Below are positions 11,508 through 30,879 of a stretch of 64,000 nt of DNA, in pieces. The notes beneath the pieces are model-generated. The model saw nothing but the letters and a program-made list of their open reading frames with translations. It did not search any database and was not told the origin of the DNA. Positions within the stretch are counted from its first letter, which is position 1; each line of letters starts with the position of its first letter. This stretch comes from Myxococcota bacterium (GTDB taxonomy: Bacteria; Myxococcota_A; Polyangia; Polyangiales; Houyiibacteriaceae), in contig JBCCEA010000004.1 of NCBI GenBank assembly GCA_039030515.1, positions 32,001 to 96,000 on the forward strand, in the 5' to 3' direction. A program made the translations under genes and the position numbers.

Positions 11508-11616
11508 TCGCTGAGACCTGTCCGAGCGACTTCTCAGGAGCGCACCAGCATATCGACGCAGCCTCTTGCCGTGATCGTCCATGCCGGTTACACCATCCGG
11601 CAAAGGAACGGCGCTC

Positions 11617-12957: not shown

Positions 12958-13053
12958 CTCAACTCGCAAGCGTCGGCTTCTGAGCACAACATCCGTGAGT
13001 TCCTAGAGAACAAACTCGATAAAGATCAACAGCGCGGTTATCATCTCGGGTCG

Positions 13054-15377: not shown

Positions 15378-16054
15378 CAGCCCCGTTCAATCCGGTAGCG
15401 CGGCCCTACTATCGGCATGAAACAGCAGAGGTCGATGGGGAGTCCGAGGCGAATGACTTCTGCGACCCGAAAATCGGACGCGGCACCAAAATCTGGCATC
15501 ACGCTCATGTAATGCGTGGCGCTCAAGTCGGTCCACACTCAGTGCTCGGTCAGAACAGCTACATCGCCGCAACCGCCATTGTTGGAGAGGGGTGTCGGCT
15601 TCAAAACAACGTCAATGTGTACGATGGGGTTAGGTTAGGTAACTACGTATTTTGCGGTCCGCAAATGACTTTCACCAACCTCTCGACGCCGCTGCCCAGA
15701 GCTGCAATCTCACGTCGAGATTCCTACCAGAACACCATCGTTGGAGACCATGCCTCATTTGGCGCAGCGAGCGTTGTGATCTGTGGAACACAGATAGGCG
15801 AAGGTGCCTTCATCGCTGCGGGCGCCGTGGTCACACGTGATGTACCGGCGTTCACCATCGTAGCTGGATGCCCTGCAAGACCCCTAGGTTGGGCTTGTCT
15901 TTGCGGGGCTCGCCTCAACTTCACCGGAAAAAATTCAAACTCCTACCGATGCGAGGCCGAGGTGCCCCCACATATAGGGCATCCCGGTGGTTGTTGCGGT
16001 AGGGTGTTTACCAGAGACAAAGAGGGCTTGGTCGCGCTCGAAAACCGCACATAA
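15374..16054 (+). CDS. wbpD: Hexapeptide N-acetyltransferase, WbpD/WlbB-like
   Basis: IGRGTKIWH, QNNVNVYDGV, FCGPQMTFTN, GAVVTRDV, GWACLCG; ATGA overlap at 15374. Confidence 0.85.
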   Translation: MTAPFNPVARPYYRHETAEVDGESEANDFCDPKIGRGTKIWHHAHVMRGAQVGPHSVLGQNSYIAATAIVGEGCRLQNNVNVYDGVRLGNYVFCGPQMTFTNLSTPLPRAAISRRDSYQNTIVGDHASFGAASVVICGTQIGEGAFIAAGAVVTRDVPAFTIVAGCPARPLGWACLCGARLNFTGKNSNSYRCEAEVPPHIGHPGGCCGRVFTRDKEGLVALENRT

Positions 16055-16069: not shown

Positions 16070-16669
16070 TCAAAATACGCGCTGAGGTACGTAAATCAGG
16101 TCTCCAGACTGCAAGAGGAAATCCTCAGTGCGCCCTCTAGTTACCTCCCGCACTGGAACACGGAAACGTCGCAAACTACCGTCTACCTTCCGAGTCACCA
16201 CCGTCGAGTTTTCATCAGCAATATTTGTAAACCCTCCAGCAAGGCTCACGGCCTGGGCCACGGTTAACCCGCTGGATATTTGAAACGAACCGGGGTTACG
16301 TACTTCACCCACGATGCTAATTTTCTTGGAGTTATACTCCTCGACCAGAACGGTAACTTGCGGCTGCTGCAAATACCCCTCTGCTCGAAGACCTTCGGCG
16401 ATACGTTCCGCCACTTGGAATGGCTGCATTCCTGCGACATTTAACTCCCCGATGAAGGGAAAAACGAAACTTCCCGAACTGCCTACTTGATAAGTGCCCG
16501 ACAGTTCTTCTTCGCCATACACTCGAACTGAGAAAATATCACTAACGCCCAAGCTACTGTCGTCTTGCACCACTGTAGGATCTACTGGAGATGCAGTTTG
16601 GCTTGAGACACAGCTTAAGAGTGAAGCGCAACAAAGGACAAAGACTCGACCGTCAACAGTACATTTCAT
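16070..16669 (-). CDS. wza: Short OPX / Wza-type polysaccharide export lipoprotein (Poly_export + SLBB, no C-terminal OM helix)
   Basis: Lipobox LLSC; LGVSDIFSVRVYGEEELSG, FPFIG, VGEVRNPG, LAGGF, LQSGDLIYVP; only 199 aa. Confidence 0.9.
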   Translation of the reverse strand: MKCTVDGRVFVLCCASLLSCVSSQTASPVDPTVVQDDSSLGVSDIFSVRVYGEEELSGTYQVGSSGSFVFPFIGELNVAGMQPFQVAERIAEGLRAEGYLQQPQVTVLVEEYNSKKISIVGEVRNPGSFQISSGLTVAQAVSLAGGFTNIADENSTVVTRKVDGSLRRFRVPVREVTRGRTEDFLLQSGDLIYVPQRVF

Positions 16670-16705
16670 TACAATTTTCTTACAAGCTCAAGATAGGCGG
16701 GCGGT

Positions 16706-18064
16706 CTAGTAGAACACGCGAACGCCGCTCCACGCCTCGAACTTTGAAAACTCGGCCGCGTCAACGCTAGACGTTCCGCGATCGACAGAGAAATCGAAAT
16801 CTGTGAAGTCTGCTCGGTAAAGAACCGTGCCGTTGAGCGCAAGCCAATCGGTCGCGCGATACTCGGCAAAGATACCTGCGTGAAGCAGAGCATCGCTTCG
16901 CTCTTCTCCGGGATCGGTTCCGAGACTGGTCGCGCCGAAATTCAGGAAGTTGACAGAGAAATCGGCTCCCAACAACAACGCGCCCAACGCGAGGGCCTGT
17001 ACTCTGGTGTAGAGACGATCTCTAGACTGAAAGTTTCCCATGAATGCTCGAGCAAATGTACGATCGTAACCAAAGGAAACACTGGAGGATTCACCTATGG
17101 ATAGGCGACCTTCCAACTGTCCGACAACTGACTCGTACTCATCCCCTGCAAAATCGTCGGTATCGTAGAAACCGACGGCATATCCGACAAGGGCGCGCAA
17201 CGAGAAACGTTGGGTGAACGCACCGTCGATTCCAACTCGGGTTTGAAACCTCCGGTGGTCGTTTAGCTCCGTAACAGCGGGAGCCGTTCCCGCATCGGTA
17301 TCAAGGTAGTCGGAGAAGACGAATTCCGCATCGTACAAGAGTGCCGTCTGCGGCAGAAAACGCCATGTCCAGGCACCCTCAACGACATGTTCGATGCTGC
17401 TCGCATACCGAAAGCTGTCGCCCTCGAAATAATCCAGACGCATCCGGTACCCGGCTCCACCACGCAGTACTCCGCCGCGAGTTTGTGCTTGAAAAGCCAA
17501 TCCCAAGTCATTTTGACTACGGGCGTAATTGTCGCTCGGACCATTCTCGGTGAATGGACGGATGGTACGTCCGAAGGATTCGGTGAACGTGAGCGAGAAA
17601 GGTCTCCCGGGCATAACCCGGAGTCGGACATCCGCATCTGCGCCCAGATTGCTTCGCGCCTCGGTCTCGAAGTAATGGAAGTAGTTGGCTGAAAGGCCTG
17701 CACGCAAATCCACTTTTCGCATCGCAGCCTGCGCATCTCCCTCCGATCGCTCTCCACCAAGCGTGGAGAGGTAGAGGTGCGGTGTAACCCTCAACACTGC
17801 ACTGCTGTCGGGATTGTCCTGCGAGAAGAAGACGTTAGAATCGTAACCCATTTCGAGTCCGACGCCGGGATGCAGCTCCAAGTTACCCACACGGAACCCG
17901 ATCCCTTCGGTTCGGTCCCTATCTTCGAGCCATCCAGGAGCGTCAGACCGAGTGTACCTAACCTGAGCGCTCACCTCAGCCAACGGCAACGACCCGTATG
18001 TACAAATAGAAACGACCGTAATTATCCAAAAGCAGGCGTTTCTTAAGTCAATATTCGGCATCAT
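16706..18064 (-). CDS. Outer-membrane beta-barrel, EpsX/ExoB/Wzp-like partner of short OPX proteins
   Basis: Signal peptide; G.ELHPGVGLEMGYDSNVF start typical of BBP2-type barrels; amphipathic strands; ends in an aromatic residue (GVRVFY); adjacent to OPX. Confidence 0.75.
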   Translation of the reverse strand: MMPNIDLRNACFWIITVVSICTYGSLPLAEVSAQVRYTRSDAPGWLEDRDRTEGIGFRVGNLELHPGVGLEMGYDSNVFFSQDNPDSSAVLRVTPHLYLSTLGGERSEGDAQAAMRKVDLRAGLSANYFHYFETEARSNLGADADVRLRVMPGRPFSLTFTESFGRTIRPFTENGPSDNYARSQNDLGLAFQAQTRGGVLRGGAGYRMRLDYFEGDSFRYASSIEHVVEGAWTWRFLPQTALLYDAEFVFSDYLDTDAGTAPAVTELNDHRRFQTRVGIDGAFTQRFSLRALVGYAVGFYDTDDFAGDEYESVVGQLEGRLSIGESSSVSFGYDRTFARAFMGNFQSRDRLYTRVQALALGALLLGADFSVNFLNFGATSLGTDPGEERSDALLHAGIFAEYRATDWLALNGTVLYRADFTDFDFSVDRGTSSVDAAEFSKFEAWSGVRVFY

Positions 18065-18230
18065 CCCCGTTCTCTCCGTAAGGCGGTGGGGCCGGGAAAC
18101 AGTGTGACCCCAATTAGGCGGCTCATCCGAGTGTCAATTTCTGGTGCGGCGTCTCTGGGTGCTGTCTTCGGTTGTTAGCCAAAACGAAACCAGGCAGTCC
18201 GCGCCAGCGCCCGATTTCTGACGCACCTTA

Positions 18231-18821
18231 CTACATAGAGGGGCTTTCCGGGGGAGGGATAAAAGGAATCGCGACAGAAGGCGGGCCTGCAACGGTTCCT
18301 GGACGCTCGGCTGGCGTCGACGGATCGACGCTGGTGGTCACCTGAGTCGCCCCGGTGTCATACAAGTCCGTGCCGATGCACTGATTAGCCTCTTGTTCTA
18401 GGACATCTAGCTTCTGAGCAAGAACACTTAAAATGGTAAAGTGATGATTTCTCTGATCTCCGCCCTGATCGATCGCCGTGCGTAAGGATTCCTGCCGAGC
18501 TCGTATGGCCTGGCGATTTGCGTTGATTTGCGCAAGCTTGTCGTTCAGGCACGTCACGCGAATGATATCCTGTTCTCGCCTGGACTCATTGAGCATGAGA
18601 CTGACGCGCCGGGATATTTGCTCACCTCTACGGATCAAAGATTCGCCACGCTCCAACTGCTCTTGGGCACGAATGTCTACGCTCTGGCGAACTTCAAACG
18701 AGCCACCCTCATCTTGACCATCTTCGCTGGACTCACCGTCTGCTTGCGCATGCACAATGTTGCTCGAGCTTGCGATCATCAGAGCGAGTAAACTTGAAAA
18801 AAACGATTTAGTTCTGAGCAT
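18231..18821 (-). CDS. Secreted coiled-coil hypothetical protein with two Cys
   Basis: Signal peptide (..VHA-QAD), DIIRVTCLNDKL...EANQCIG, Pro-rich tail; start at MLRTK (18821) preferred over 18878. Confidence 0.75.
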   Translation of the reverse strand: MLRTKSFFSSLLALMIASSSNIVHAQADGESSEDGQDEGGSFEVRQSVDIRAQEQLERGESLIRRGEQISRRVSLMLNESRREQDIIRVTCLNDKLAQINANRQAIRARQESLRTAIDQGGDQRNHHFTILSVLAQKLDVLEQEANQCIGTDLYDTGATQVTTSVDPSTPAERPGTVAGPPSVAIPFIPPPESPSM

Positions 18822-18985
18822 TTTGCGCCATCCACAACATCTTTTGCAATCCCCGAAAATGGTATACGTGAAGTGCATTATCTACAAGAACTTGGATCGT
18901 TCACGCCAGAGGACAACGCGTAGCATCAAGCCGCCACTACCTTCAACTAGGATTGACTCCATGACCTGCTTTACGGCTTCCATTT

Positions 18986-20467
18986 CTAGTTCTGAGGGGC
19001 AAAAACGAATGGATACCGGAACGATACGCTTCCTCCTTCCGGCCCCGGATTGAACCGAAGCCGTCGGACAGTGCTGACGACACACGCTGCAAGGCCGGCA
19101 GATGCTGAAGTGTTTTCTACCGCATTCGCAGCAGAAACCGTTCCTGCCGGAACGATCGTGAACTGAACTGTAACCTTGCCCTGGACCGTAGGATTGTTGC
19201 GGAGCTCCCGCTCGTAACATGCCTGAAACGCGCGTCGCCTTGCTCCTATGGCACGCGTTACGTTTCCTTGAGCAAAAACCCCGGATCCTCCTACATCCGC
19301 TCCACCCGAGAAGTTTACCCGCCCTCGAATTCGACGTTCCTGAACTGCTGCTCCTTCTGCAGCGGCTCTTCCAGCCTCTCCCCGCTGACGTAAAGCACCC
19401 AGTCCAGCGCCCTGACCGCTTCCAGCCCCGCCCGAGCGCGTCCGTAGTGTACCGCTGGCTCCTCGGGAGGCGACGCCAACCCCACTCGCCTGGGCCATCA
19501 CCTCTTCCGCGTTGCCCGTCACCGCGCCACCCGCGAGCACGTCCGCGAGCGCTCCACCTTCACCCAGTGCGCCAAGAATCATCGATTCAGCCTGAGCAGC
19601 GGCCTCCTCCGCAATACGCGCACGAGCTTCTGCTCTTGCTGCTGCTTCATCTTGCTCGGATTCTTGACCTGAATTTGCTTCGCGAGGTGGCTCCTTAGTA
19701 GGTTCTCGCTTAATCGGCGTACGCTTCGCTACCTTTTCTGGCTCACTCTTTTCTTCATCGACCGGATCAGTCTGAGGCTCTTCTTGAGGTTCCTCCGGAG
19801 GCTCGGGCTCCTGAAAAATCAACCGTGCCGCAGCGTCCGGCAGCGCCTGAATGCCGCGTTCGATCGGCCAATCGGCATTCTCCAGGTAGATAATGAATCC
19901 GAAGAACGCCATATAGCTGAACACGACCAAAGACGTGAACGGCCAATCGATTCCAGCGACAAAACCTCCTGTGGCGGCTGCGGGGAGTTGAGGCCTCGGT
20001 GTGACAGGTGGTGGAGCCACAAATTGAAATAGCAAAGTAGTGTCTCCGATCACTACTTTGCCTCGAGAGCTATCCGTGAGCTTCACTTGATGATAGCTGT
20101 CGGCCTCTCTAGCGGCTCCCGACTTTCGCAGCTGATCGAGATCTTGAACTCCGGAAGGCAACCCCACTCGGCCGGACATCAGAGAGGTAAAGTTGAGAAT
20201 GTAATCATTTCCCACCAACTGAAAAAGCTCGAAGCGTCCCGGAAGACCCTTTGCTTGAACTATGAAGTGGTTCTTTTCCGACGTTCCTACGCACACCGTT
20301 TCGCGCTTCCGGATGATCCGCTCCTCGACGATCTTTCCCCCCTGAATCAATCCGACACGCAAAACTCGTGGCCCCGCAGACCGCGCCGCCACAGCATTCA
20401 TGGCCATGGTCATGGCTCCGGGTTTTCCCCGACCACTTGGTTCTGTTCTTCGAGTAAATTGGCTCAT
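18986..20467 (-). CDS. gltG: GltG/NfsG (PglI/AgmX C-terminal domain) family: FHA-like domain, TM helix, Pro/Glu linker, TonB-C-like domain
   Basis: N-terminal beta domain, TM FTSLVVFSYMAFFGFIIYL, EPEPPEEP linker, C-terminal ACYERELRNNPTVQGKVTVQFTI...ACV...YPFVF. Confidence 0.8.
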   Translation of the reverse strand: MSQFTRRTEPSGRGKPGAMTMAMNAVAARSAGPRVLRVGLIQGGKIVEERIIRKRETVCVGTSEKNHFIVQAKGLPGRFELFQLVGNDYILNFTSLMSGRVGLPSGVQDLDQLRKSGAAREADSYHQVKLTDSSRGKVVIGDTTLLFQFVAPPPVTPRPQLPAAATGGFVAGIDWPFTSLVVFSYMAFFGFIIYLENADWPIERGIQALPDAAARLIFQEPEPPEEPQEEPQTDPVDEEKSEPEKVAKRTPIKREPTKEPPREANSGQESEQDEAAARAEARARIAEEAAAQAESMILGALGEGGALADVLAGGAVTGNAEEVMAQASGVGVASRGASGTLRTRSGGAGSGQGAGLGALRQRGEAGRAAAEGAAVQERRIRGRVNFSGGADVGGSGVFAQGNVTRAIGARRRAFQACYERELRNNPTVQGKVTVQFTIVPAGTVSAANAVENTSASAGLAACVVSTVRRLRFNPGPEGGSVSFRYPFVFAPQN

Positions 20468-20662
20468 CTCACGCTTCCATCCAGTTCAGGAACAATGCTC
20501 CACCCGCTTATTCCATGACCTCATCTCGAAAAAGAGCGCCCTTGTTCGCAAAGAGCTTAGTGATTTGAGTGCCCCACTTCGATCGTCTCCCACCGAAGAC
20601 CAATCCTTTGACGAAAAGCCGCATCGGGCCTTCGGCCAGCTAGCGGATCTCGCAGACAAGCT

Positions 20663-20986
20663 CTAGAAGGGCTCCTGCTGAACGCTTTGAAGAACTTCCT
20701 GCACAAAACTCGTACGAAGATCCAAAACCTCATAACCAATATTGCTGCGGTTGAGAATGTAGAAAGCATTTGGCTTCTGAACACGCCCTTCTATCCGAAA
20801 CTCTTCGAGCTGAATTACCCGAGGCGCGCCCCTTCCCTGCGCTTCGACTTTCTTCAGCCCGAGGCCGAGGAACAGGAGACTCATCACAGCGCCTCCAACG
20901 ACCACACCAGATTTAAGACGATGTCCAATCACGTTGAAACTCTTTCGCACGACGACGAGTGAATCATATACTTTGGATGTACACAT
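20663..20986 (-). CDS. gltF: GltF/NfsF-like small secreted protein
   Basis: IEGRVQKPNAFYILNRS...RTSFVQEVLQSV..PF; lies between gltE and gltG; true start may be downstream. Confidence 0.7.
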   Translation of the reverse strand: MCTSKVYDSLVVVRKSFNVIGHRLKSGVVVGGAVMSLLFLGLGLKKVEAQGRGAPRVIQLEEFRIEGRVQKPNAFYILNRSNIGYEVLDLRTSFVQEVLQSVQQEPF

Positions 20987-22533
20987 TACTCTTCCAAAGT
21001 TTCGGATCCATCACGGGGACCACGTTCAGCCTCTTGCTGAGCCGCAGCGCGTTCTCTTTCGATACGACGATTTTCTCTCTCGATGCGGCGACCGATATCC
21101 CTCAAGTAGCCTTCCGAAGCGTCATCACGTGGAAGCCTAGGTCCCATCATGTCTCGGTATCGTGTGAATGCGTCGACCGCCAACTGGAGCGACGTCAGTG
21201 CATCATTGCCAGGGAATTCGCCGCCAGCCATCAGGTACGTAAGACCCAGATTGAAATGAGCCTCCGGTAGATTCGGATTCATTTGTAAGGCTCGGTCTAG
21301 AGAGGCCTTTGCTCGTTGCCACTGTCGATTGGCTCGGTAGGCATCTCCAAGGTTCAAGTGAACGACTGCAAGTTTCGGAGCCAATTGAGCGGCTGTCTCA
21401 AAGTGGCTTAATGCTTCCGGGTAGTTGGCGCCAGCCAGCAGCTGAATCCCCAGCGCCATGTGTGCCTCGGCGTAATCTGGCCGCAACTGAACTGCACGCC
21501 TGAATTCAACCAGAGCGTCCCTCAATCGCCCCGACTCCTCCAGATACATCCGGCCCTTAAGATAATGCAGCTCAGCATTTCCATCTCCAACCTCTAAAGC
21601 CTGTGCGAGAATACGCTGAGCAAGCTCGCCCCTCCCCTGTTCTAAACTCGCCTTCACCAGAGCGACCATCGCAGGCACAAATCTCTCATCGCAACGAAGT
21701 GCCCGCCGTGCTGCATCCCAGGCCTGATCAAATTGGCGACTCATGACGAGAACTTCAGCGTAGAGAGCTTGGATGTGGAGGTTTGTGGAATGCGTCCGAG
21801 CCATCGGCTCCACAAAAGCTAGCGCTTCTCGCACGGAACCTCTCCGCAGCTGGATGGTGACGATCCCTCGTGCCGCCGGCTCGTAGTCTTCCTGAATTTG
21901 AAGTGCCTGGCGGTAGTGATCCATCGCCGCCGCCTCGTCACCGGAGCGCTGAGCCAAGACCCCGATGCTATATCGCGCTTGATAAGATCCGCTATCCGCA
22001 CTCAAGGCCTGCTGGAACGCGGTACGAGCACGAGAATAGTCTCCGCTGTTTGAATATTGAACTCCTGCCTCAAACTTCTCGCGGGCACGCGCGTTCATCT
22101 GCCTTCGCTCTGGACTGCGGCACTGCTCCGCCCGAGTCTGTCCCCATGGACTCTGAGCCGTAGACGGTTCCTCTAAGGAACCTTCTTGAGTGTCTCTCTC
22201 AGAAAACTCGGTCGGCGAAACGTTCTCTTCTTGTTCGTGGTCTAGTGAATCCTCATCGAACTGCGACGCAACTGACTGCCGGTCGTCGGCCGACGCGCTG
22301 GACGAAGATTCACCTCCCGCTGACGACTCGGTGATCGGCGGTCTCCCACTCGAGGCACCACCGCAGCCACCAAACAAAACGCAGCCCGCGAGAACGCATC
22401 GTGTAAGAAGAAACACTTTCGGGGTCGATTCTTCGAGCATGGATCTCGTAGGCATCCGCTGGGCAGAACGAGTAGGGAACAAACAACCGCTGGCCACGTC
22501 ATCACGGCCGTGAAACCTGAAAAACTTCGTCAT
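20986..22533 (-). CDS. gltE: TPR lipoprotein, GltE/AglT/NfsE-like
   Basis: Lipobox VLFGGC, many TPRs (PDYAEAHMALG, PEAHFNLG); operon position; start may be downstream. Confidence 0.7.
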   Translation of the reverse strand: MTKFFRFHGRDDVASGCLFPTRSAQRMPTRSMLEESTPKVFLLTRCVLAGCVLFGGCGGASSGRPPITESSAGGESSSSASADDRQSVASQFDEDSLDHEQEENVSPTEFSERDTQEGSLEEPSTAQSPWGQTRAEQCRSPERRQMNARAREKFEAGVQYSNSGDYSRARTAFQQALSADSGSYQARYSIGVLAQRSGDEAAAMDHYRQALQIQEDYEPAARGIVTIQLRRGSVREALAFVEPMARTHSTNLHIQALYAEVLVMSRQFDQAWDAARRALRCDERFVPAMVALVKASLEQGRGELAQRILAQALEVGDGNAELHYLKGRMYLEESGRLRDALVEFRRAVQLRPDYAEAHMALGIQLLAGANYPEALSHFETAAQLAPKLAVVHLNLGDAYRANRQWQRAKASLDRALQMNPNLPEAHFNLGLTYLMAGGEFPGNDALTSLQLAVDAFTRYRDMMGPRLPRDDASEGYLRDIGRRIERENRRIERERAAAQQEAERGPRDGSETLEE

Positions 22534-25500
22534 CGGATTCCTCCGAGAATCGATGGAGGTGCCCCTGACTCAAGGTGGACCGTGCGTCCTCGAGGTGCTC
22601 GAGTGAACTCTCCGTTTTGATAGGCCCCCATGCTCGGATCGGTTTGTTGAACTTCAGCGATGCACTCCGCTATGCGCTCTTCGCCGTATGCCTGGAGCCG
22701 ATCGGTGGACGTTTGTGTAAACTCGTCGTCTAAGCTCGCTTGTCTCGCTGCGCGCGAAGCAAGCGCGTATCTCGCAATCGCGAGACATTCGATGGGACGC
22801 ACTCTGTCATCCAGCACTGCACGAATCCGGTCCTCGACCTCGATCTGAATCAGGTCCCGATCCATCGGGTCCACGGCACGGAGTTGTCGCTGCATATCAC
22901 CCGGCATCACGAAGGGCGTATTGAGAATCGCTCGCACCAAGACTTCGTATACACGACCCTGCTGAACCAACGCGGCGATCGTCCAAGCGGGTCTCCGATA
23001 CGATGGCACTTCACTGTAGGCCTCAGACCTCGCATTGGCCTGCTGACTCGCGTCATCGATTTGGGACGTAATCGAGCCTACGTAAGCTTCCATCGTCGTA
23101 GGACGCTCAGCGTCAATCTCAATCCGCTCGTACTCAGCCATGCCGGCATCTACCAGCATAAAGCGTGCATGAGCTGCATATTCTGCTGCCAATGACCCTG
23201 GATCTTCGCCCGAACTTTCGAATTCTGAAACTACGTTGCGCAACGCATTTCTATATTCACGTTCGCGCCGAAATTGTCGAAATGCCTGGGCAATACGCCA
23301 TCGGGCCTGGACGCGCAGCTCTCCAGAACCCTGGCTCACCGGGTTGTCCAAGAAGGAACGCATTTGGCGTATTGTTTCGGCCCAATCACCACGCGTGTAG
23401 CGCATCTCCGCTATGCGGTAGTACGCGCGTCGACGCGTCTCTTCGTCCGAGGTCGTTTCGGCTGCCCGCTGATAGTAGCTTGCCGCCGGATCATAACGCT
23501 GAAGATTCTCTAGTATAACCGCAGCGTTGATCAGTGAGTCTTCTCGGTACTGACGAATTTTTTCATCCTCGGTCGACTGAAACCGAGAACTGTCTGCGAG
23601 AATTCTGTAATTCTCGACTGCTCGATCAAACTCAAAAAACCGATTCGAGTTGTACGCCAATCGGAAATACGCGTTCGCCAAAATCGCATCGAGACGCGCC
23701 TGCTCTGCCACGTCCTCCGAACTACGCGGACCAACTTCCTCGACGATACGCTCGTAGAGGCCAGCCGCAGATTCGAATCTGCTCGTTCGCTCAAGCGCAG
23801 TCGCGGCGTATTCAAGAGCTACGGGCGCCTGAGTATCGCCGGGGTTTCTGTTGACCGCCTCCACCAGCATCGTCGCAGAGCGTTCGTAGAGACGGCGGCG
23901 ATCTTCATTCAGAGGCTCGCAGTTGCCCACATCTAAAGTTCCGCAAGCCTGCTGGAAAATATCCAGGGCGCGGCGGTAGCGAATGCTGTTCAGGTCACCC
24001 ATAGCCCTACACAAAGGCGCGTCTCGATTGATGGGGTCTTCACAATCTACCGTTCGGCAGTCCGGATGCCTTGAGTTCGCCTCGTCGCTACAGTCGATAG
24101 AACTTGCCTGAAAAGTGCAACGTCGATCCTGTAGCTCCCTCGCCAACTCCTCAACGCGATCGTTATTGCCGAGCGCGATGGCCATATTTCGAAGGTTCTC
24201 CCAAGACGTTTGACCAGTTTCATCAGCAAAACGACCGGAGCATCTTTCATCGAAAATACGCTGGAAACGGTCTTGAGCGTAGTCCCAGTAGCCGTACCAG
24301 TAAAGCAGCAGAGCGTTATTGAAATCATACGCTTCGCGAACATCCTCTAGGTCATCCGCATCAGAAACTCGCGCCAAGTACATCTCTCGAGCCTGAGCGA
24401 TTCGTTGAACCGGCTCCGGCATGCTCATCGGTGCAATCTGAAGCGGGTCCCCCTGGGCGTCCGGAGCTGCGCTTCGAACCTGTAGACGTCCAGACCCAAC
24501 AAGCTGTTCGTTGATCCGCTTGACCGATTCAACCACTCTCCTGGCAGATTCACCAAGGTGTGTGTCATCGAGGTTGCTGTCTCGAACCGATGCATATTCA
24601 AGGGCGGCGTTCTCGTAATCCTCCGACCAGAAAAGCGCGTCTGCCAAATTATATCGCAGCTCGTACGCTTGGGGATCGTTGGGGTACGCAAGCAGATATT
24701 GTCGGTAGGCGATCGCCGCTGCTCGGTAGAGTCGCTGCGCTTCGTTGCAGAGCTCTAGATCACTGTTGCGCACGCATTCTCGTCGGGTTGATTGAGCCTC
24801 TTGATGTTGGCGAAGCGCGGTGCGAATCAACGCCCCCTCGGCCATCTCCTCGGCTTCGCGCTGTTCACTGGGATGATCGATCTGGTTACTGTACCAGCAG
24901 TTTGGATCGATTTCGCATGCACCCGGTCCAAAACGTGCGAGTTCTGCAAGAGCTTCGAAATGCTCTTCACGCTGATTGTGCATCTGGTATGCACGAGCGA
25001 TCATATTCGTGATTTCAGCCGCTCGATGGTGGTACGGCCATCGCTGCAAAGCGAGCTGCCACACTTCAACAGCTTCGGGGTACTTCGCTTCATCGAAGTA
25101 GACCTGACCTAGTTGGAAGTATACTTCGGCAGTCCAGGGTTGATCCTGGGGCAAGAGTGCCGGGTTCTGGACGCGCTGAAGGCTAGTAGGTTGGCCCTCG
25201 TAAGCGTCGGGAACCTGGTTTTCATTCCAGTCGTCATACGCAAACGATATCCCCAAATACTGGATGGCTTCCGGACGCAATTCAGATCCGGCACGACCCG
25301 TCCGGGCTCGTTCACGATCAGACCAGTCGACCAGCATCGTAAAGTACCGAATAGCCTCCGGATACCGACTTGCCCTGTAGTAGGCCCAAGCGATTTTGTA
25401 GAGGGCTAGATTGTAGTTTCGGTCATCCGAATCGGAGAGGATCTGACTGTATGCGTGAATGGCCAAATCAAGTGCTTGAGAATCGCGATAGTCATCGAAA

Positions 25501-26561
25501 TGATACTCCCCAACTCGAAACCAGGTTTCACTCAAAAAGCGCGCATCTTCAGAGACCGGCTGGCAGGACGCGTAAGGATTTGCGGCAGACTCAGCACGAG
25601 GGGCTTCAAGCGTTCCAGGCGCATCAAGCGATATCGCTGGATACTGCGCAGCGTCATCTTGCTCCTCTTCCGCGGGAGGAGAAGCAGAAACGAAGGCCAT
25701 CGGATCGTAACGGTATTGATTGGCACATACTAGATTGAGCCAAGCCATGCGAGCTTCGTCCGGACGGCCCATCTCATTCAAGCAGTAGCCGATGAGGTAA
25801 TATGCACCGTCAACACGTCGATATTCGGGGAAGTGAGCTGCCAAGCGCTGATAGATTTCGACGGTGGGCATGAAATCGGGAAAGTCAGGAACCGCTAGCT
25901 GCTCGCCTCGCTCCGCTGCCTCGTTGGCCGCGTCATACTGCTCCTGAAACTGGACTGCGCTGCGCTCAAAGTAGAGTTCGCCAAGCCTGAACATTGCATC
26001 CGGTGTGTAGTCAGAGTCGTCCGGGTACCTAGCGACAAATCGTTCGAAGAGTCGTATCGCCTGGTCGCGAGCATCGTTTTGTAGGCGATCCTCTTCTACA
26101 ACCTGTTCGTCATACCATCGATCACGACTCCATCTCTGACGGGTATATTCTCGACGAAGCATCGAGTTGACCACGCTTTGATAGGCTTCGGCAGTATTGC
26201 TAAACCTGGAAACCTCAGACTCCATTTCACGAAGGGCTTGCACCTGAGACTCCGTCGGGGGCTCTCGTTCGTCCTGAAGTCGAAGATCCGTTGTATCTAG
26301 AAACGCCGGAACAGACGGTACTTGGCTCGAATAATCTTCTTCTGCTTCAGACCAAGGAATCTCATCCTGCGTCGGCTCCGCGGAGGGTGATGTCGAATCG
26401 ACATCGCCCTGCTCTCGTTCGCTCTGACCGGACTCTTCGTTCGCTTGGGTTTCATCACCAGATTGCGCTGACGCTGCAGTGGATTGCGCGTGGGCAACGT
26501 GTGGCCCAACCCAAGCCAAAAACAGTACTACAGCAAAGAGTCTCAGAAGTCCGCTCGTCAT
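22530..26561 (-). CDS. gltD: Large periplasmic TPR protein, GltD/AgmU/NfsD-like
   Basis: Signal peptide; TPDAMFRLGELYFE, WFRVGEYHFD, ALYKIAWAYY, LRPEAIQYLG, WTIAALVQQG; 1343 aa. Confidence 0.75.
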   Translation of the reverse strand: MTSGLLRLFAVVLFLAWVGPHVAHAQSTAASAQSGDETQANEESGQSEREQGDVDSTSPSAEPTQDEIPWSEAEEDYSSQVPSVPAFLDTTDLRLQDEREPPTESQVQALREMESEVSRFSNTAEAYQSVVNSMLRREYTRQRWSRDRWYDEQVVEEDRLQNDARDQAIRLFERFVARYPDDSDYTPDAMFRLGELYFERSAVQFQEQYDAANEAAERGEQLAVPDFPDFMPTVEIYQRLAAHFPEYRRVDGAYYLIGYCLNEMGRPDEARMAWLNLVCANQYRYDPMAFVSASPPAEEEQDDAAQYPAISLDAPGTLEAPRAESAANPYASCQPVSEDARFLSETWFRVGEYHFDDYRDSQALDLAIHAYSQILSDSDDRNYNLALYKIAWAYYRASRYPEAIRYFTMLVDWSDRERARTGRAGSELRPEAIQYLGISFAYDDWNENQVPDAYEGQPTSLQRVQNPALLPQDQPWTAEVYFQLGQVYFDEAKYPEAVEVWQLALQRWPYHHRAAEITNMIARAYQMHNQREEHFEALAELARFGPGACEIDPNCWYSNQIDHPSEQREAEEMAEGALIRTALRQHQEAQSTRRECVRNSDLELCNEAQRLYRAAAIAYRQYLLAYPNDPQAYELRYNLADALFWSEDYENAALEYASVRDSNLDDTHLGESARRVVESVKRINEQLVGSGRLQVRSAAPDAQGDPLQIAPMSMPEPVQRIAQAREMYLARVSDADDLEDVREAYDFNNALLLYWYGYWDYAQDRFQRIFDERCSGRFADETGQTSWENLRNMAIALGNNDRVEELARELQDRRCTFQASSIDCSDEANSRHPDCRTVDCEDPINRDAPLCRAMGDLNSIRYRRALDIFQQACGTLDVGNCEPLNEDRRRLYERSATMLVEAVNRNPGDTQAPVALEYAATALERTSRFESAAGLYERIVEEVGPRSSEDVAEQARLDAILANAYFRLAYNSNRFFEFDRAVENYRILADSSRFQSTEDEKIRQYREDSLINAAVILENLQRYDPAASYYQRAAETTSDEETRRRAYYRIAEMRYTRGDWAETIRQMRSFLDNPVSQGSGELRVQARWRIAQAFRQFRREREYRNALRNVVSEFESSGEDPGSLAAEYAAHARFMLVDAGMAEYERIEIDAERPTTMEAYVGSITSQIDDASQQANARSEAYSEVPSYRRPAWTIAALVQQGRVYEVLVRAILNTPFVMPGDMQRQLRAVDPMDRDLIQIEVEDRIRAVLDDRVRPIECLAIARYALASRAARQASLDDEFTQTSTDRLQAYGEERIAECIAEVQQTDPSMGAYQNGEFTRAPRGRTVHLESGAPPSILGGIR

Positions 26562-28930
26562 AGAGCACTTCCTTCCTCGTCTCCATTTTCGTTTTGATCC
26601 GTGATTTCACGAAACTCATCGTCGAGAGTCTGCACCTCACGCTGTCGATCGCGGGTTAGCGAGTCCACACGGAGTCGATGTTCCTCACGACGCTGCCATG
26701 AAACGTCTATCTCGCCCACGTGACTCCGGAGTAGGAGGTTGTGGAACCGGTCGCGTACCTGAAGGAAGTGATCGTAAGCAAGTGCTCCGATCACTTCTTC
26801 GGTCTCGGCCTCAAGTAAAGCCAGCAAATCTCGATACCCCGCCAGCTTCAACCGTTCGTCTTCCAAAGTCTGTTGCGTTGCAGCAACGCGCGACGCAACA
26901 GCTGCGTCGATTTCGTCGTCATGGGAATCAAGCAAAGCCTCAACCCTTGTGATTTGACCGAAGAGCCGACCCGCTTCGCTAGAAGAGCGCAACCCGTTCG
27001 AGGCGAGCAACTGGCGTTCCTTATCGACCAGGTTGTTGTAATCACTTCGCAACCGGCGATCGCGAATGTATCGACTGTCACCAACCCCTACCTGCATTCG
27101 AGCGACCTCGACACTGCCAGCGAGTTCATCGATAGCCTTTTGATACCTTTCGATAGCTTCTAGATGCGCCGCCAGCTCCGATGCCACTGCACTTGTATCC
27201 GAGTTCTGCTGACTTACAGGGTTCGACAGAAAATGATCGGTAGCGGTAATTCGTGCCTCCATACCGAGCAGTTCCACTTCCAGTTCACGCAATGCACGTT
27301 GAAGATCTCGATAACGCTCAAGCGCCTGATCATCGCGTGCTGAGAAGTCCTCATCCGACATCGGCATCCGGTCGAGCGACTGCTCGAGCTGTGCTCGCTC
27401 TTCTCGGAGCGCCTCTAACCCTTGAATTGCTCGCGAGGAAACAGGGCCAAACTCCGCTCCCATGAGCGCCCGGCGCGCTCGAATCAAACGATTCCTGAGC
27501 GCGATCGTACCTTCACGATGTCGACGAAGGTTGGCAAAGACATTGACTGCGTTTGTGGAATTCACCGCAGCATCCAAACGTGTCACGAGGCCAGCAGTCT
27601 CGTGTACCAACCGTCTGGCTTGACTGAGATCGTCGATAACCTGTAGCGCTCGACCGACTTCACCCTCGCTCTTGGACCATCGTTGAGCTAGCGGTGGAAG
27701 CACGCTGGCGGCATCAAACGCTTCGAGATTCGTCCGAACCAAATCTCGGAAGTACAGAGGAAGATCTGCATGGGAGTGCAGCACGTCGTCGAGTTCTTCG
27801 CCAACAGGTTCAAACTGTGCCTGAACATCATCAAAGACTTCGTCGGCATCATCGAACCGCCCGTTGCGGAGTAGCAAGTTACCCCGAAGCAGCTGACCGT
27901 CGGGGATGTAGCGACTTTCCGGGGCAGCAACCTGCAACACTTCGAGGGCTCGCTCAGCGCGGATAGAGTCGCCAAGACGAATGAATGCCCAGGCGATCTC
28001 GTAAAGCGCGGTATCGAATCGAGGAGAGCTGCGTGAGACGCTTTGGTACGCCTCGATCGCCTGCAAAAGCTGATTGGTCTCGTAGTACAGACGCCCGAGT
28101 GCCAACTGTGCGAGCTCGGCCACCTGAGGATGCCCGGCCTCGGTCGTTGGAGCGCGAAGCACTCGTCGGAACGCCTCGATGGCTTGGGGGAACTCAGCGC
28201 GAAGCGCGTGAATCACTCCGATAAAATACACCGCCTGCGGGTAGTAGGAGCTACCCGCAGCCACCACCTCAAACGCTCGTTTGGCTGACTCGATAGCCGG
28301 CAGATCCACGCGCAGTTCACTTAGGTCTGCCTCCGAGCCGACCGCCTCGGATGGAACGGCTCGATTGTATAGGTATTTGGCGCGAAAATAAGCGGTTGAG
28401 GCGCCAACTTCTGCCGGCGGTAAACGGTTCAGCCGCTGGAAGTAGGCTTCCACCCCGGTGAACTCATGCGTGTGTATCGCAATCTCGATGAGTCGCCCCA
28501 AGGTGTTTTGAACGTAAGGTCGAAACGCAGATTCGTCAGAGTTCGCGAGGACAGTCTCGTAGTGCCGTCTCGCGCCGAGGTAGTCTCGTGCCATGAACAG
28601 AGACTCTGCCAGTAAAAACTTGGCCTCTGGGTAGATCGCATGCGCCGCGTGATGGTCGACGATATCGGTGAAGATGATGCTGGCTCGCCCGTAATCCTGC
28701 AGTTGGAAAAACAGCTCCCCGTCGGTGAGCCGTTCCTCTACGTAGGTTGGGCTTCTCAAGCGTTGTCGATCGAGCGGATCTGACGCAAGCACACGAGCGC
28801 GCTGCTCGATATCGACCACGTCTCGACTGACTCGTTCAAGCCCCTGTGTTGCTCCAATCGCGGGAAAAGCAAGCGAGGACAGAGCAACCAAAACAAAACC
28901 AGCCCCTGGCGCCGAAGGCCGAAACATCAT
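26558..28930 (-). CDS. gltC: TPR + coiled-coil protein, GltC/NfsC-like
   Basis: Signal peptide; ELAQLALGRLYYE, SPRFDTALYEIAWAF, long C-terminal coiled coil; ATGA-coupled to gltD. Confidence 0.6.
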   Translation of the reverse strand: MMFRPSAPGAGFVLVALSSLAFPAIGATQGLERVSRDVVDIEQRARVLASDPLDRQRLRSPTYVEERLTDGELFFQLQDYGRASIIFTDIVDHHAAHAIYPEAKFLLAESLFMARDYLGARRHYETVLANSDESAFRPYVQNTLGRLIEIAIHTHEFTGVEAYFQRLNRLPPAEVGASTAYFRAKYLYNRAVPSEAVGSEADLSELRVDLPAIESAKRAFEVVAAGSSYYPQAVYFIGVIHALRAEFPQAIEAFRRVLRAPTTEAGHPQVAELAQLALGRLYYETNQLLQAIEAYQSVSRSSPRFDTALYEIAWAFIRLGDSIRAERALEVLQVAAPESRYIPDGQLLRGNLLLRNGRFDDADEVFDDVQAQFEPVGEELDDVLHSHADLPLYFRDLVRTNLEAFDAASVLPPLAQRWSKSEGEVGRALQVIDDLSQARRLVHETAGLVTRLDAAVNSTNAVNVFANLRRHREGTIALRNRLIRARRALMGAEFGPVSSRAIQGLEALREERAQLEQSLDRMPMSDEDFSARDDQALERYRDLQRALRELEVELLGMEARITATDHFLSNPVSQQNSDTSAVASELAAHLEAIERYQKAIDELAGSVEVARMQVGVGDSRYIRDRRLRSDYNNLVDKERQLLASNGLRSSSEAGRLFGQITRVEALLDSHDDEIDAAVASRVAATQQTLEDERLKLAGYRDLLALLEAETEEVIGALAYDHFLQVRDRFHNLLLRSHVGEIDVSWQRREEHRLRVDSLTRDRQREVQTLDDEFREITDQNENGDEEGSAL

Positions 28931-29730
28931 TCATCCGTTGCGGCAACACCGCTCGAAGACGAGCCCTCGTCGATACGCTCCACGAAGCGGATCGCAGGTC
29001 GATCCTCCAGCGGGGCCGTTGGGCCGCCCTCTTCGTATCCGATAACCCTCAAGTCGATCGCCCTTCCTTCAGGAGCCGTAAACGAGTAGTTGGATCGCAC
29101 CTTGAAGCGATAACCCTTTAAGTAGGAAAAGACTCCGTAGCCGTGACCACGGTACTCTGCATTGACGGTGAGTGTATGCTCCCCGGGCACGATACTTCCG
29201 TTGTACACCTGAAATTCTTCGCGCTCCCCGAGGTCCCCGTCCTCATCCGCTCTACTAAATATCGGAGCTCCGTCCAAAGCGTATACTGCCTTGACGAGTT
29301 TGTAAGAGTTGCTCATGCGATTTTGGTGCACGATAACCGCCTGCGCTCCGGCGACCACTCCCTGAAGTACAGTCTCAGCTAGGAGGGACAAACGAGCTTT
29401 CGAACGAAATATTTGTTCCTTGAGCTCGTTGATGCGCTGCTCCAAATCTCGAAGCCGCACCGCGTACGTACTGGCGTTCATCTCGTCTACCTGACGACCC
29501 TCGACCTCGGAACTTTGGGGCGAGACATTGCTTCCGTTCGTCGTTACCTCGCCAAACCCCTCCCCCGGGTCTGCGTCTGCCGCCCGAGAATTCTCCGTTG
29601 GGGGTGCGGAATCTTCCCTGGAAGAATCCACACCATCGAGTTCATCAGTATTGTTGGGTTGTGCAACCGAAGTAGCGGTGACCAGCATGGCCAGCGCGAT
29701 CAATGGCCACATCGACGTCAGCCTACGCAT
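28927..29730 (-). CDS. Secreted hypothetical protein (acidic linker, coiled coil, beta-sandwich); probable first gene of the Glt-like operon
   Basis: Signal peptide; LRDLEQRINELKEQIFRSKARLSLL, YALDGAPIF, YRGHGYGVFSYLKGYRFKV; ATGA-coupled to the next gene. Confidence 0.8.
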   Translation of the reverse strand: MRRLTSMWPLIALAMLVTATSVAQPNNTDELDGVDSSREDSAPPTENSRAADADPGEGFGEVTTNGSNVSPQSSEVEGRQVDEMNASTYAVRLRDLEQRINELKEQIFRSKARLSLLAETVLQGVVAGAQAVIVHQNRMSNSYKLVKAVYALDGAPIFSRADEDGDLGEREEFQVYNGSIVPGEHTLTVNAEYRGHGYGVFSYLKGYRFKVRSNYSFTAPEGRAIDLRVIGYEEGGPTAPLEDRPAIRFVERIDEGSSSSGVAATDE

Positions 29731-29988: not shown

Positions 29989-30771
29989 TCAGAACGCCCC
30001 GAGCCACCGCATCCATCCGCCTCGGCGTCTCAGCTCGAAGCCGCCGGCAGTTTGGGCACCCACCACGGCGTGCGCAAGCGAGTCGAAAAACTCCTCCTCC
30101 GGAAGCGACATCCTGAGGGCGCGCGCGATGATCTTCCACTCCTCCGAAGGACCTGCGAACGTCACCTTGGCGCCCATAAAACGCGCGACGTCACGCACCG
30201 ACAGCAACTCCACCACGCGATCCCTGGCCGCCTCGACCAGCCCAAGAGAGTCGACGACGAGCGCTCCAATCGGCTCGCGAAGCATCCACGCTCCGACCTT
30301 CTCGTTCACCCGAGCGATAGACTCACTGGGCCAGCTACCGGATAGGGTGAGCAGCAAACATCCGGGATAAAGGAGGCGAAGCGGTACACTCGCCTGCTGT
30401 TTTGCTTGGAGCTCGGACTGCTCCACCTCTTTCATTCCAGCGAAAACCCCTTCGAGAAAAAGAGCGAAGAGGCGCTGACCGTCTCCGACCACAGGAGAGA
30501 CTCGGAGCCGCTCAAAAAGTGCCGTTCCGACGGTGAAGACGCCGGTTGGAGAAAGCTGGCATGCTCCGACTCGTCGCCCAAATAGCGTCAGGAGTGCACA
30601 GCCTTCAGAATGACTAAGGGAGAACGGCCGATCGGATTCTGAATGAGAAAAAGCGAGGAATACGGGCCGGGTCTCCTCGGTCAACTCATCGATCCAGAAT
30701 CGATCTGCATGCAAAACGAGCGACTCGCTTAATTGATTATGAAATTTCTGTTGCTCGACATTCGCATCCAT
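29989..30771 (-). CDS. Hypothetical protein with a C-terminal STAS (RsbR-like) domain
   Basis: ALVVDSLGL...LLSVRDVARFMGAKVTFAGPS resembles RsbR STAS (IIDITG...RLLGAxxILxGIxP). Confidence 0.55.
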   Translation of the reverse strand: MDANVEQQKFHNQLSESLVLHADRFWIDELTEETRPVFLAFSHSESDRPFSLSHSEGCALLTLFGRRVGACQLSPTGVFTVGTALFERLRVSPVVGDGQRLFALFLEGVFAGMKEVEQSELQAKQQASVPLRLLYPGCLLLTLSGSWPSESIARVNEKVGAWMLREPIGALVVDSLGLVEAARDRVVELLSVRDVARFMGAKVTFAGPSEEWKIIARALRMSLPEEEFFDSLAHAVVGAQTAGGFELRRRGGWMRWLGAF

Positions 30772-30879
30772 CGATCTCGACTGTAGAGGAACCCCACTTG
30801 CGAGGGTACCCCCCTAACCGCCATCTGTTGTGGTAACGCGGTTCCACCCTGAACGAAAAGTCGCAGCAGGAGATTCCAA

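What the first reader, a model, noticed from the sequence alone, without database searches (positions are those of the whole stretch)
16070..29730. Glt/Nfs-like trans-envelope machine co-oriented with a polysaccharide translocon: candidate motor-coupled polysaccharide export system
Seen: nine consecutive minus-strand genes, in order unknown secreted protein, gltC-, gltD-, gltE-, gltF-, gltG-like, unknown coiled-coil protein, OM barrel, OPX. The first five are joined by ATGA/TAATG overlaps. Established: C-D-E-F-G is the gene order of the Nfs spore-coat and Glt gliding machineries, which are driven by the AglRQS proton motor through the TonB-like GltG/NfsG and use GltA/B/H (NfsA/B/H) OM barrels; Nfs moves secreted Exo polysaccharide over the surface. 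Also seen: no gltA/B/H/K or aglRQS here, and their positions are taken by two unknown proteins and the export barrel. Inference: a further Glt paralogue that engages or energises the polysaccharide pore directly. Additional uncharacterised glt-like clusters are known in myxobacteria, so it may be orthologous to one of them.
Basis: partly seen in the sequence, partly recalled or inferred. Interest (0 to 1): 0.8.

Follow-up and report, generated by a model that had tools for sequence, protein, structure and literature searches.

The report
Glt-like G4 machine beside polysaccharide pore
These nine genes are this bacterium's copy of an old gene block also present in Myxococcus xanthus, where an envelope machine of unknown job (related to the gliding motor) sits next to a sugar-polymer exit pore, which suggests a testable job for that machine.

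Summary
Observation confirmed. The locus is most likely the orthologue of the M. xanthus region holding the uncharacterised Glt paralogue cluster G4 (MXAN_1919-1923), MXAN_1917, wzpB and wzaB; it is not the gliding set, whose best match lies on another contig. The OPX hits WzaB (PDB 9N9A) at 148.6 bits, and Myxococcus-like metagenome loci read mglA-gene1-C-D-E-F-G-gene7-barrel. The block is deeply conserved: the barrel follows G4 in 64 of 75 full-length loci (26 of 31 families). In 43 of 75 an AglRQS-like motor sits between gltF and gltG, where the window has a 195-base gap. Gene 7 (three-helix bundle, conserved Cys pair, C-terminal PPxxSP motif) stays with the barrel even when G4 splits off, so it is a candidate pore component. 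Against obligate energising: a published M. xanthus G4 gltD insertion had no motility defect while wzaB/wzpB deletions do; one family keeps the pore without the G4 GltG; many barrels lack room for a TonB box. Best reading: an accessory, Nfs-like proton-driven handler of the exported polymer or its pore (0.45). No physical link was tested. The scan found this block before in at least six other genomes.

The parts
28927..29730 (-). Gene 1: secreted protein of no Pfam/NCBIfam family (by position the MXAN_1924 orthologue); long helix followed by a transthyretin-like beta-sandwich; marker gene of G4
   Evidence: No family hit; found in 153 of 201 phylum genomes, mostly one copy; model pLDDT 89.5; best fold match Z 9.1, rmsd 3.6, 100 aligned, not specific
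26558..28930 (-). gltC-like TPR protein, 790 aa (G4; MXAN_1923 is 809 aa)
   Evidence: NF033756 105.9 bits, cut-off 450; length from paper table
22530..26561 (-). gltD-like TPR protein, 1343 aa (MXAN_1922 1111 aa; Sorangium sce5944 1431 aa)
   Evidence: TPR hits; profile hits the other gltD-like ORFs of the genome; position; lengths
20986..22533 (-). gltE-like TPR lipoprotein (lipobox LFGGC; true start may be downstream of 22533)
   Evidence: NF033758 120.7 bits, cut-off 225; starts
20663..20986 (-). gltF-like small secreted protein (probable start GTG 20932, 89 aa)
   Evidence: NF033764 20.5 bits, E 3.7e-4; conserved in the loci
20468..20662 (-). 195-base gap at the position where an AglR/Q/S-like motor triad lies in 43 of 75 related loci
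18986..20467 (-). gltG-like inner-membrane transducer with TonB_C / AgmX-PglI tail, no FHA domain (MXAN_1919 447 aa)
   Evidence: PF03544 at 429-489; NF033760 matched from profile position 192 only; best hit in this genome of the mglA-linked GltGs
18231..18821 (-). Gene 7: secreted three-helix bundle with conserved Cys pair and an extended tail ending in a PPxx(S/T)P motif (by position MXAN_1917); candidate accessory of the pore
   Evidence: Model pLDDT 85.9; C66 and C123 nearly invariant; (S/T)P in the last 12 residues of 56 of 74 homologues; directly upstream of the barrel in 16 of 17 barrel-centred loci
16706..18064 (-). Outer-membrane beta-barrel, WzpB (MXAN_1916)-type polysaccharide porin
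   Evidence: BBP2_2 in 30 of 64 aligned members; 42% identical to a Sandaracinus barrel; one copy found in the genome
16070..16669 (-). Class-3 (short) OPX lipoprotein, WzaB orthologue; ends in -VF
   Evidence: PF02563 + SLBB; 148.6 bits to PDB 9N9A = M. xanthus WzaB; only Poly_export gene found in the genome
11581..16054 (+). Context, convergent on the OPX: two nucleotide-sugar dehydrogenases, a Gfo/Idh/MocA oxidoreductase and a hexapeptide acetyltransferase
   Evidence: not part of the conserved block

Best explanation
The block is the orthologue of M. xanthus G4 + MXAN_1917 + wzpB + wzaB (about 0.93 for this identity). It is probably a vertically inherited derivative of the ancestral Glt 'core complex' operon, which once carried its own ExbB/ExbD/ExbD motor between gltF and gltG. 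Mechanism, inferred from Glt/Nfs and not shown here: an AglRQS-like proton channel (encoded elsewhere in this genome) drives GltG, whose TonB-like C-domain works across a periplasmic TPR scaffold (GltC/D/E/F plus gene 1). In place of GltA/B/H barrels, the outer-membrane end is the gene7-WzpB-WzaB pore. The Wzc-OPX-barrel channel exports the polymer by itself. G4 is an accessory that positions or moves the pore, or pulls on the gene 7 tail or the emerging polymer to clear and release it, as Nfs handles spore-coat polymer after secretion. Shown: gene content, order, conservation, OPX identity, motor insertion. Inferred: any contact, any force, any effect on polysaccharide.
For: Barrel downstream of G4 in 64 of 75 full loci, 26 of 31 families; with OPX in 47. 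Independent of my choice of loci, 99 of 142 genomes with both coordinates listed have gene 1 and the barrel co-oriented 8.7-15.5 kb apart. Flanking genes change between lineages; no flanking family recurred in more than 17 loci. Motor triad inside the block in 43 of 75. A Wzc gene lies downstream in 9 loci, and sugar-pathway or Wzc genes in 27 of 64. Gene 1 and barrel co-occur: both 148, gene 1 only 5, barrel only 6, neither 42 of 201 (kin not independent). In 15 of 75 loci barrel and G4 stay together while the OPX has moved or was not within the fetched stretch (12 of them 1CDEFrqsG7B). The other three glt-like clusters of the genome each have an OMP_myx_plus barrel; this one does not. In M. 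xanthus MXAN_1915-1920 all fall in an mrpC mutant (log2 -1.3 to -2.3). Precedent: Agl-Nfs moves secreted polymer and is separable from secretion (PMC3858216).
Against: A polar insertion in MXAN_1922 did not affect motility appreciably (PMC3169522; figure not seen), whereas loss of wzaB or wzpB gives a severe swarm defect (PMC12819527). The link is broken in families f17, f8, f18 and f9, and loosened in f11. Five f17 genomes show no G4-type GltG (best 188-218 bits on 590-1374-aa frames). MXAN_1917 has its own start site with an MrpC peak at -88; MXAN_1922/1923 follow a different pattern (up in csgA, unchanged in mrpC); MXAN_1918, a cyclic-nucleotide-binding protein, separates gltG from gene 7. 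No conserved N-terminal extension on the barrel. Which of this genome's three motors belongs to G4 is unresolved.
Confidence: 0.45

Rival explanations
1. Two functionally separate modules (G4; gene7-wzpB-wzaB) stay neighbours through inheritance and shared regulation only; G4 does another envelope job.
For: Repeated separation at the gltG/gene 7 junction with both modules intact; own promoter for MXAN_1917 and unlike regulation of gltC/D4; no phenotype of the MXAN_1922 insertion; gaps of 164-195 bases.
Against: Persistence across 26 of 31 families and in Myxococcus-like loci while all flanks change; co-loss of gene 1 and barrel; the barrel stays with G4 in lineages where the OPX has moved away.
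Confidence: 0.3
2. One reading: G4 is the energiser of export, a reverse TonB system in which GltG pulls a TonB-box-like strand on the barrel (or on gene 7) to open the pore.
For: GltG has a TonB_C domain; motor, transducer, barrel, OPX and Wzc lie in one run in several genomes; gene 7 has an extended tail with a GxTxVxxxxD consensus.
Against: The EPS and MASC class-3 pores have no such cluster described; the published export model needs only PCP-OPX-porin; the G4 gltD insertion lacks the BPS-minus swarm phenotype; f17 keeps the pore without G4 GltG; no room for a TonB box on many barrels.
Confidence: 0.12
3. Gene 7 and the barrel are primarily G4's own outer-membrane module (for example for exposing or secreting gene 7 or another protein, or for barrel assembly), and the OPX borrows the barrel.
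For: Barrel + gene 7 remain with G4 in loci where the next gene is unrelated, such as ftsK; gene 7 has a conserved extreme C-terminal motif resembling a sorting or docking signal.
Against: WzpB binds WzaB and is essential for BPS export; all genomes of those families still have an OPX elsewhere; when the block splits, gene7-barrel goes with the OPX, not with G4.
Confidence: 0.1
4. It is the orthologous gliding (G1/G2) or Nfs set with A/B/H genes elsewhere.
For: Same C-D-E-F-G order; NCBIfam glt models are the best named hits.
Against: Contig C10 carries a better set: GltC 271.5 bits, FHA-bearing GltG 417.5 bits, two OMP_myx_plus barrels and a 3378-aa ORF; the window GltG lacks FHA.
Confidence: 0.02

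Closest known systems
M. xanthus G4 cluster, MXAN_1919-1923 (PMC3169522); Sorangium sce5940-5945; Stigmatella STAUR_2684-2688
   Same: C-D-E-F-G order, protein sizes (809/1111/490/91/447 aa versus 790/1343/515/107/493), FHA-less GltG, no A/B/H barrels; function unknown
   Different: In M. xanthus mglBA lies upstream and MXAN_1918 (cyclic-nucleotide-binding) is inserted after gltG; here an RsbR/STAS-like gene and an NtrC-type regulator lie upstream. The paper did not count gene 1 or gene 7 as members, nor note the pore in the passages I read.
WzpB-WzaB (MXAN_1916-1915) class-3 OPX/beta-barrel translocon of the BPS pathway (PMC9603273, PMC12819527)
   Same: Short D1-D2 OPX lipoprotein, 148.6 bits to WzaB, hydrophobic C-terminal pair (VF versus FF), barrel gene directly upstream, Wzc with fused kinase encoded elsewhere
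   Different: Polymer unknown here; it is the only OPX found in this 85%-complete genome, so it need not be a biosurfactant. The papers' model has no gene 7 and no Glt-like partner.
Agl-Nfs spore-coat machine and Agl-Glt gliding machine (PMC3858216, PMC9946355)
   Same: TPR scaffold C/D/E, small F, TonB-like G driven by an ExbB/ExbD/ExbD motor; works-like model for handling a secreted polymer
   Different: No GltA/B/H, I, J, K in the block; GltG lacks FHA; extra gene 1 and gene 7; a polysaccharide porin follows instead
Ancestral Glt 'core complex' operon of Gammaproteobacteria and Geobacter (PMC3169522)
   Same: Order C-D-E-(small gene)-R-Q-S-G by locus tags is matched by 43 of 75 related loci
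   Different: The window has lost the motor from the block; the core complex has no gene 1, gene 7, Wzp barrel or OPX reported

Membership tests
G4 Glt-paralogue cluster | gltC-D-E-F-G contiguous, without A/B/H/I/J/K | tested here: met
   compared with tags and sizes
G4 Glt-paralogue cluster | GltG of about 450-510 aa without FHA domain | tested here: met
   493 aa; NF033760 matched only from position 192; no FHA hit
G4 Glt-paralogue cluster | Orthology to the cluster downstream of mglA in Myxococcus-like genomes (proxy for MXAN_1925-1915) | tested here: met
   MglA-like ORF upstream of gene 1 in 24 of 28 metagenome loci over 7 kb; L162 MglA 418.7 bits to PDB 6HJH; five mglA-linked GltGs hit the window GltG at 174-193 bits versus 61-103 for the genome's other paralogues; the tree itself left deep branches open
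G4 Glt-paralogue cluster | Reciprocal best hits against the M. xanthus proteins themselves | not testable with these tools
Gliding Glt (G1/G2) or Nfs | FHA-bearing GltG/NfsG and adjacent GltA/B/H-type barrels | tested here: not met
   Absent from the block; present on contig C10
Gliding Glt (G1/G2) or Nfs | NCBIfam equivalog cut-offs | tested here: inconclusive
   Window proteins fall far below, but the C10 set is also below cut-off, so only the ranking is informative
Class-3 OPX / Wzp translocon | OPX with Poly_export + one SLBB, lipobox, no C-terminal membrane helix | tested here: met
   199 aa; aligns to WzaB to the last residue
Class-3 OPX / Wzp translocon | Adjacent outer-membrane barrel gene | tested here: met
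   36 bases upstream; BBP2_2 in 30 of 64 homologues
Class-3 OPX / Wzp translocon | 18-stranded barrel with charged lumen | not tested
Class-3 OPX / Wzp translocon | Cognate PCP (Wzc) in the genome | tested here: met
   One Wzz-domain hit at the end of C41; its continuation with a kinase motif at the end of C28, 141-base contig overlap
Core-complex operon with own motor | ExbB/ExbD/ExbD between gltF and gltG | tested here: not met
   Absent in the window; met in 43 of 75 relatives; three triads elsewhere in the genome
TonB-dependent pore | Conserved TonB-box strand at the barrel N-terminus | tested here: inconclusive
   No conserved N-terminal motif; 38 of 63 barrels have 16 or fewer residues between a signal-peptidase-like site and the first conserved Pro, by a crude pattern biased to short values; no complex prediction was available

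The most novel reading that the evidence does not exclude
G4, its motor, gene 7 and WzpB-WzaB are one ancestral proton-driven polysaccharide export machine of the myxobacteria. GltG pulls the gene 7 tail, which gates the Wzp barrel. The gliding and spore-coat motors would then have arisen from a polymer exporter by replacing the pore with GltA/B/H.
Probability: 0.15. Interest if true: 0.88.

Novelty: new member of a known kind. Interest (0 to 1): 0.55.

Why it matters
Each half is in print: G4 was named in 2011 with unknown function, and WzpB/WzaB are characterised. In the searches I ran no paper linked them. The tags MXAN_1917-1919 and 1922-1924 occurred in the main text of one paper only, and 'glt' occurs 0 times in the two main Wzp papers; the library lacks most subscription papers. 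The conserved block gives a concrete, cheap hypothesis in a genetic model for two open questions: what G4 and the ancestral core complex do, and whether anything beyond Wzc powers or finishes class-3 OPX export. Gene 7 (MXAN_1917) is a separate lead, an unstudied protein that almost never leaves the barrel gene. If G4 proves unlinked in function, this window is an ordinary orthologue of a known locus.

Tried and rejected
Complex prediction (barrel + GltG C-domain + gene 7) was not available; binding is untested. No RNA holder was listed, so co-transcription in this organism is untested. The promoter/terminator scan gave 4 promoter-like sites (shuffles 5.6 +/- 2.1; none on the minus strand) and 19 terminator-like (14.7 +/- 3.5): uninformative. 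The named-genome scan with gene 7 found one locus. A GltC-family search over 292 genomes at E<=1e-125 rang nowhere, controls included, so no Myxococcus genome was reached. Plasmid search: no match. Metagenome loci could not be extended, so only L162 reaches the barrel N-terminus and none reaches the OPX. Fold searches for gene 1 and gene 7 (best Z 12.0, rmsd 2.7, 105 aligned, generic helical bundles) gave no specific family; the Atlas gave only unnamed or mis-named Myxococcota clusters. AglR tree: polytomy. The C31 minus-strand triad scored best against embedded motors for R (29 of 46) and S (38 of 44), but the C8 triad did for Q (28 of 43); no cognate motor is claimed. The GltG tree left deep branches open and flagged long-branch joining. 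My guess that Haliangium Hoch_3957-3964 is G4 with a motor was wrong. Start-site tables of PMC8844925 gave no hit in 4 held files. One search timed out and was redone by another method. Coevolution analysis was not tried: about 60 paired sequences are too few.
Full report
OBSERVATION. Nine minus-strand ORFs occupy 16070-29730 as described. Junctions are -4, -4, -4, -1, then 195, 107/164, 166 and 36 bases. Family scans give GltC-, GltE-, GltF(CglF)- and GltG-like hits below cut-off, TPRs for the gltD-like ORF, TonB_C without FHA in GltG, a weak BBP2_2 hit for the barrel, Poly_export + SLBB for the OPX, and nothing for genes 1 and 7. Two of the four overlaps rest on first-ATG starts that are probably too long.

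NOT THE GLIDING SET. The genome (4.08 Mb, 85% complete) has three more glt-like clusters. C10 has GltC 271.5 bits, FHA-GltG 417.5 bits, two OMP_myx_plus barrels and a 3378-aa ORF; C53 and C8 each have one such barrel. Three ExbB/ExbD/ExbD triads lie on C31 (two, back to back) and C8. Only one Poly_export gene, one barrel of this type and one Wzz-domain gene were found. The latter runs off C41 and continues on C28 with a kinase motif (141-base overlap).

IDENTITY. PMC3169522 (abstract, passages, two parts of the main section, supplement 1 text, part of Table S3) defines G4 as MXAN_1919-1923 (447, 91, 490, 1111, 809 aa), function unknown, next to mglA (MXAN_1925). PMC9603273 (passages) places wzaB (MXAN_1915) 23 bp downstream of wzpB (MXAN_1916); PMC12819527 words the order the other way. 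The window OPX matches PDB 9N9A at 148.6 bits, E 1.8e-42, which is M. xanthus WzaB; the EpsY model gives 90.8 bits (a different scoring method, so only indicative). I could not reach a Myxococcus genome, so I used a database homologue of gene 1 named Archangium to fetch 80 metagenome loci and examined the 28 longer than 7 kb. In 24 of 28 an MglA-like ORF precedes gene 1; 12 reach gltG, none with a motor after gltF; 3 reach gene 7; 1 (L162) reaches the barrel start (hhalign 97.2%). L162's MglA differs from PDB 6HJH at five positions in the printed alignment (that 6HJH is the M. xanthus protein is recalled). Five mglA-linked GltGs hit the window GltG over full length at 174-193 bits, against 61-103 for the other paralogues. 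Supplement rows of PMC11980068 name MXAN_1917 hypothetical and MXAN_1918 a cyclic-nucleotide-binding protein. Identity with G4 + MXAN_1917 + wzpB + wzaB is therefore very likely, though by proxy.

CONSERVATION. Gene 1 was found in 153 and the barrel in 154 of 201 genomes drawn evenly from the phylum: both 148, gene 1 only 5, barrel only 6 (three of them weak hits), neither 42 (kin are not independent). Of 142 genomes with both coordinates listed, 99 have the barrel co-oriented 8.7-15.5 kb downstream, 9 are otherwise arranged on one contig, and 34 are on different contigs, many in fragmented assemblies. I fetched 20 kb around gene 1 for 80 of the 153, chosen for long contigs and family spread, and dropped 5 (four contig ends; one fetched in the wrong direction, refetched as L092 and complete with motor, gene 7 and barrel). 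Among 75 loci (31 families): barrel 64 (26 families), barrel + OPX 47 (19), gltG 69. In the 7 loci where the gene 7 profile missed, a secreted Cys-containing ORF of 169-255 aa sits in the same place. Wzc lies downstream in 9 loci, and nucleotide-sugar or Wzc genes within the short fetched stretch in 27 of 64. No flanking family recurred in more than 17 loci.

THE MOTOR. In 43 of 75 loci (18 families) a MotA_ExbB gene and two ExbD genes lie between gltF and gltG, matching the order of the core complex read from locus tags; 41 of these also have the barrel. The window's order lacks the insertion and has a 195-base gap there. The first ExbD carries Asn at the membrane position (38 of 43 matched; 5 no match), the second Asp (22 of 44 matched; 22 no match). 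Which triad of this genome descends from it is unresolved.

WHERE THE BLOCK BREAKS. In f17, f8, f18 and f9 gene7-barrel-(OPX) lies apart from G4; gene 7 is directly upstream of the barrel in 16 of 17 barrel-bearing loci fetched, the exception being L088. In f17 all six loci end at gltF, and five genomes searched show only longer GltG paralogues. Conversely, in 12 loci of pattern 1CDEFrqsG7B the barrel stays with G4 and the OPX is elsewhere; those genomes still have an OPX (191 of 201 genomes match, many through unrelated OPX classes). The gene7-barrel link is thus the tightest, and both G4-barrel and barrel-OPX links break at times.

THE TWO UNKNOWNS. Gene 1: helix 16-56 then a beta-sandwich (pLDDT 89.5), transthyretin-like at unspecific Z; homologues are often auto-named dihydrolipoamide acetyltransferase without any such Pfam hit. 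Gene 7: three helices, near-invariant C66/C123, then a tail with consensus GxTxVxxxxD and a C-terminal PPxx(S/T)P(F/Y) motif ((S/T)P in 56 of 74, SP[FYW] in 29 of 74). The barrel has no conserved N-terminal extension, unlike GltA/B, which have one with a possible TonB box (PMC9946355 passages). If GltG grips anything here, the gene 7 tail is the better candidate; this is inference.

FUNCTIONAL EVIDENCE FROM PRINT. For: Agl-Nfs moves secreted Exo polymer and is separable from secretion; MXAN_3003 bound neither GltG nor NfsG (PMC3858216 passages). MXAN_1915-1920 are all down in an mrpC mutant at 24 h (log2 -1.84, -2.19, -2.32, -1.59, -1.33, -1.58). Against: MXAN_1922/1923 are instead up in csgA and unchanged in mrpC, 1921 and 1924 are not in that table, and MXAN_1917 has its own start site with an MrpC peak at -88. 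The polar MXAN_1922 insertion did not affect motility appreciably, with soft-agar insets in a figure I could not see, whereas wzaB and wzpB deletions give a severe fuzzy-swarm defect and are complemented ectopically. That test predates the description of BPS, so a mild defect may have been missed, but an obligate role is unlikely. Other papers seen as passages only: PMC7310880, PMC7484181 (supplement rows; it calls MXAN_1915 outside any polysaccharide cluster), bioRxiv 10.64898/2026.09.26.754727 (supplements not seen), PMC12288465, PMC9601211; PMC8844925 supplement search only.

VERDICT. Real, conserved, and an orthologue of known loci; new member of a known kind whose function is open. Accessory Nfs-like handling of the polymer or pore 0.45; conserved neighbours only 0.30; obligate energiser 0.12; barrel as G4's own protein module 0.10; gliding set 0.02. 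No contact or phenotype was tested here. The scan's notes record the same block, with and without the embedded motor, in at least six other genomes; I reached both readings before opening them and do not count them as support. Interest 0.55.

Noticed in passing
window 11581-16054 (+): Two nucleotide-sugar dehydrogenases, a Gfo/Idh/MocA oxidoreductase and a hexapeptide acetyltransferase converge on the OPX; they resemble a partial WbpA/B/D diacetamido-uronic acid route (name recalled); no aminotransferase in the run.
   Followed up: partly
window 29989-32265: RsbR/STAS-like gene (weak YtvA hit) directly upstream of gene 1 on the same strand, divergent from an NtrC-type sigma-54 response regulator.
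   Followed up: no
window 35117-36553; L074:14734-16296: A PBP4-type D-Ala-D-Ala carboxypeptidase family occurs near the block in 17 fetched loci; the window has a similar-looking ORF 5 kb upstream (not scanned).
   Followed up: no
L214 (G000:C53:5601-9055): The gltD-like gene of the third glt cluster is split into two ORFs 23 bases apart: frameshift, pseudogene or assembly error.
   Followed up: no
L215 (G000:C8:101519-117667): A fourth glt-like set: motor triad, 150-aa ORF and an 850-aa protein with an AgmX/PglI tail, then an OMP_myx_plus barrel and gltC/D-like genes.
   Followed up: partly
L216 (G000:C31:25185-29338): Two divergent AglRQS-like triads back to back, as sce2991-2996 in Sorangium.
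   Followed up: partly
L100-L104: Five genomes with the embedded motor showed no member of the two AglR clades found on C31, while motor-less genomes had them: the embedded triad may be the ancestral AglRQS.
   Followed up: partly
L042-L047, L082-L087, L099 (family f17): G4 truncated to gene1-C-D-E-F with no G4-type GltG found; gene7-barrel-OPX often about 20 kb away on the other strand.
   Followed up: yes
L010 (G119); L097 and L098 (G134): Tandem duplicate of gene 1 in G119; two separate gene7-barrel-OPX copies in G134.
   Followed up: no
L170, L180, L187, L192: An extra TPR ORF between gltD and gltE in one group of mglA-linked loci.
   Followed up: no
G000:C41 end / C28 end (L132): The single Wzc is split across two contig ends overlapping by 141 bases, flanked by flippase, glycosyltransferase and pseudaminic/nonulosonic-acid-like genes (names by eye, not scanned).
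   Followed up: partly
P0134, P0143, P0187: Gene 1 homologues are mis-named 'dihydrolipoamide acetyltransferase' in public records.
   Followed up: yes
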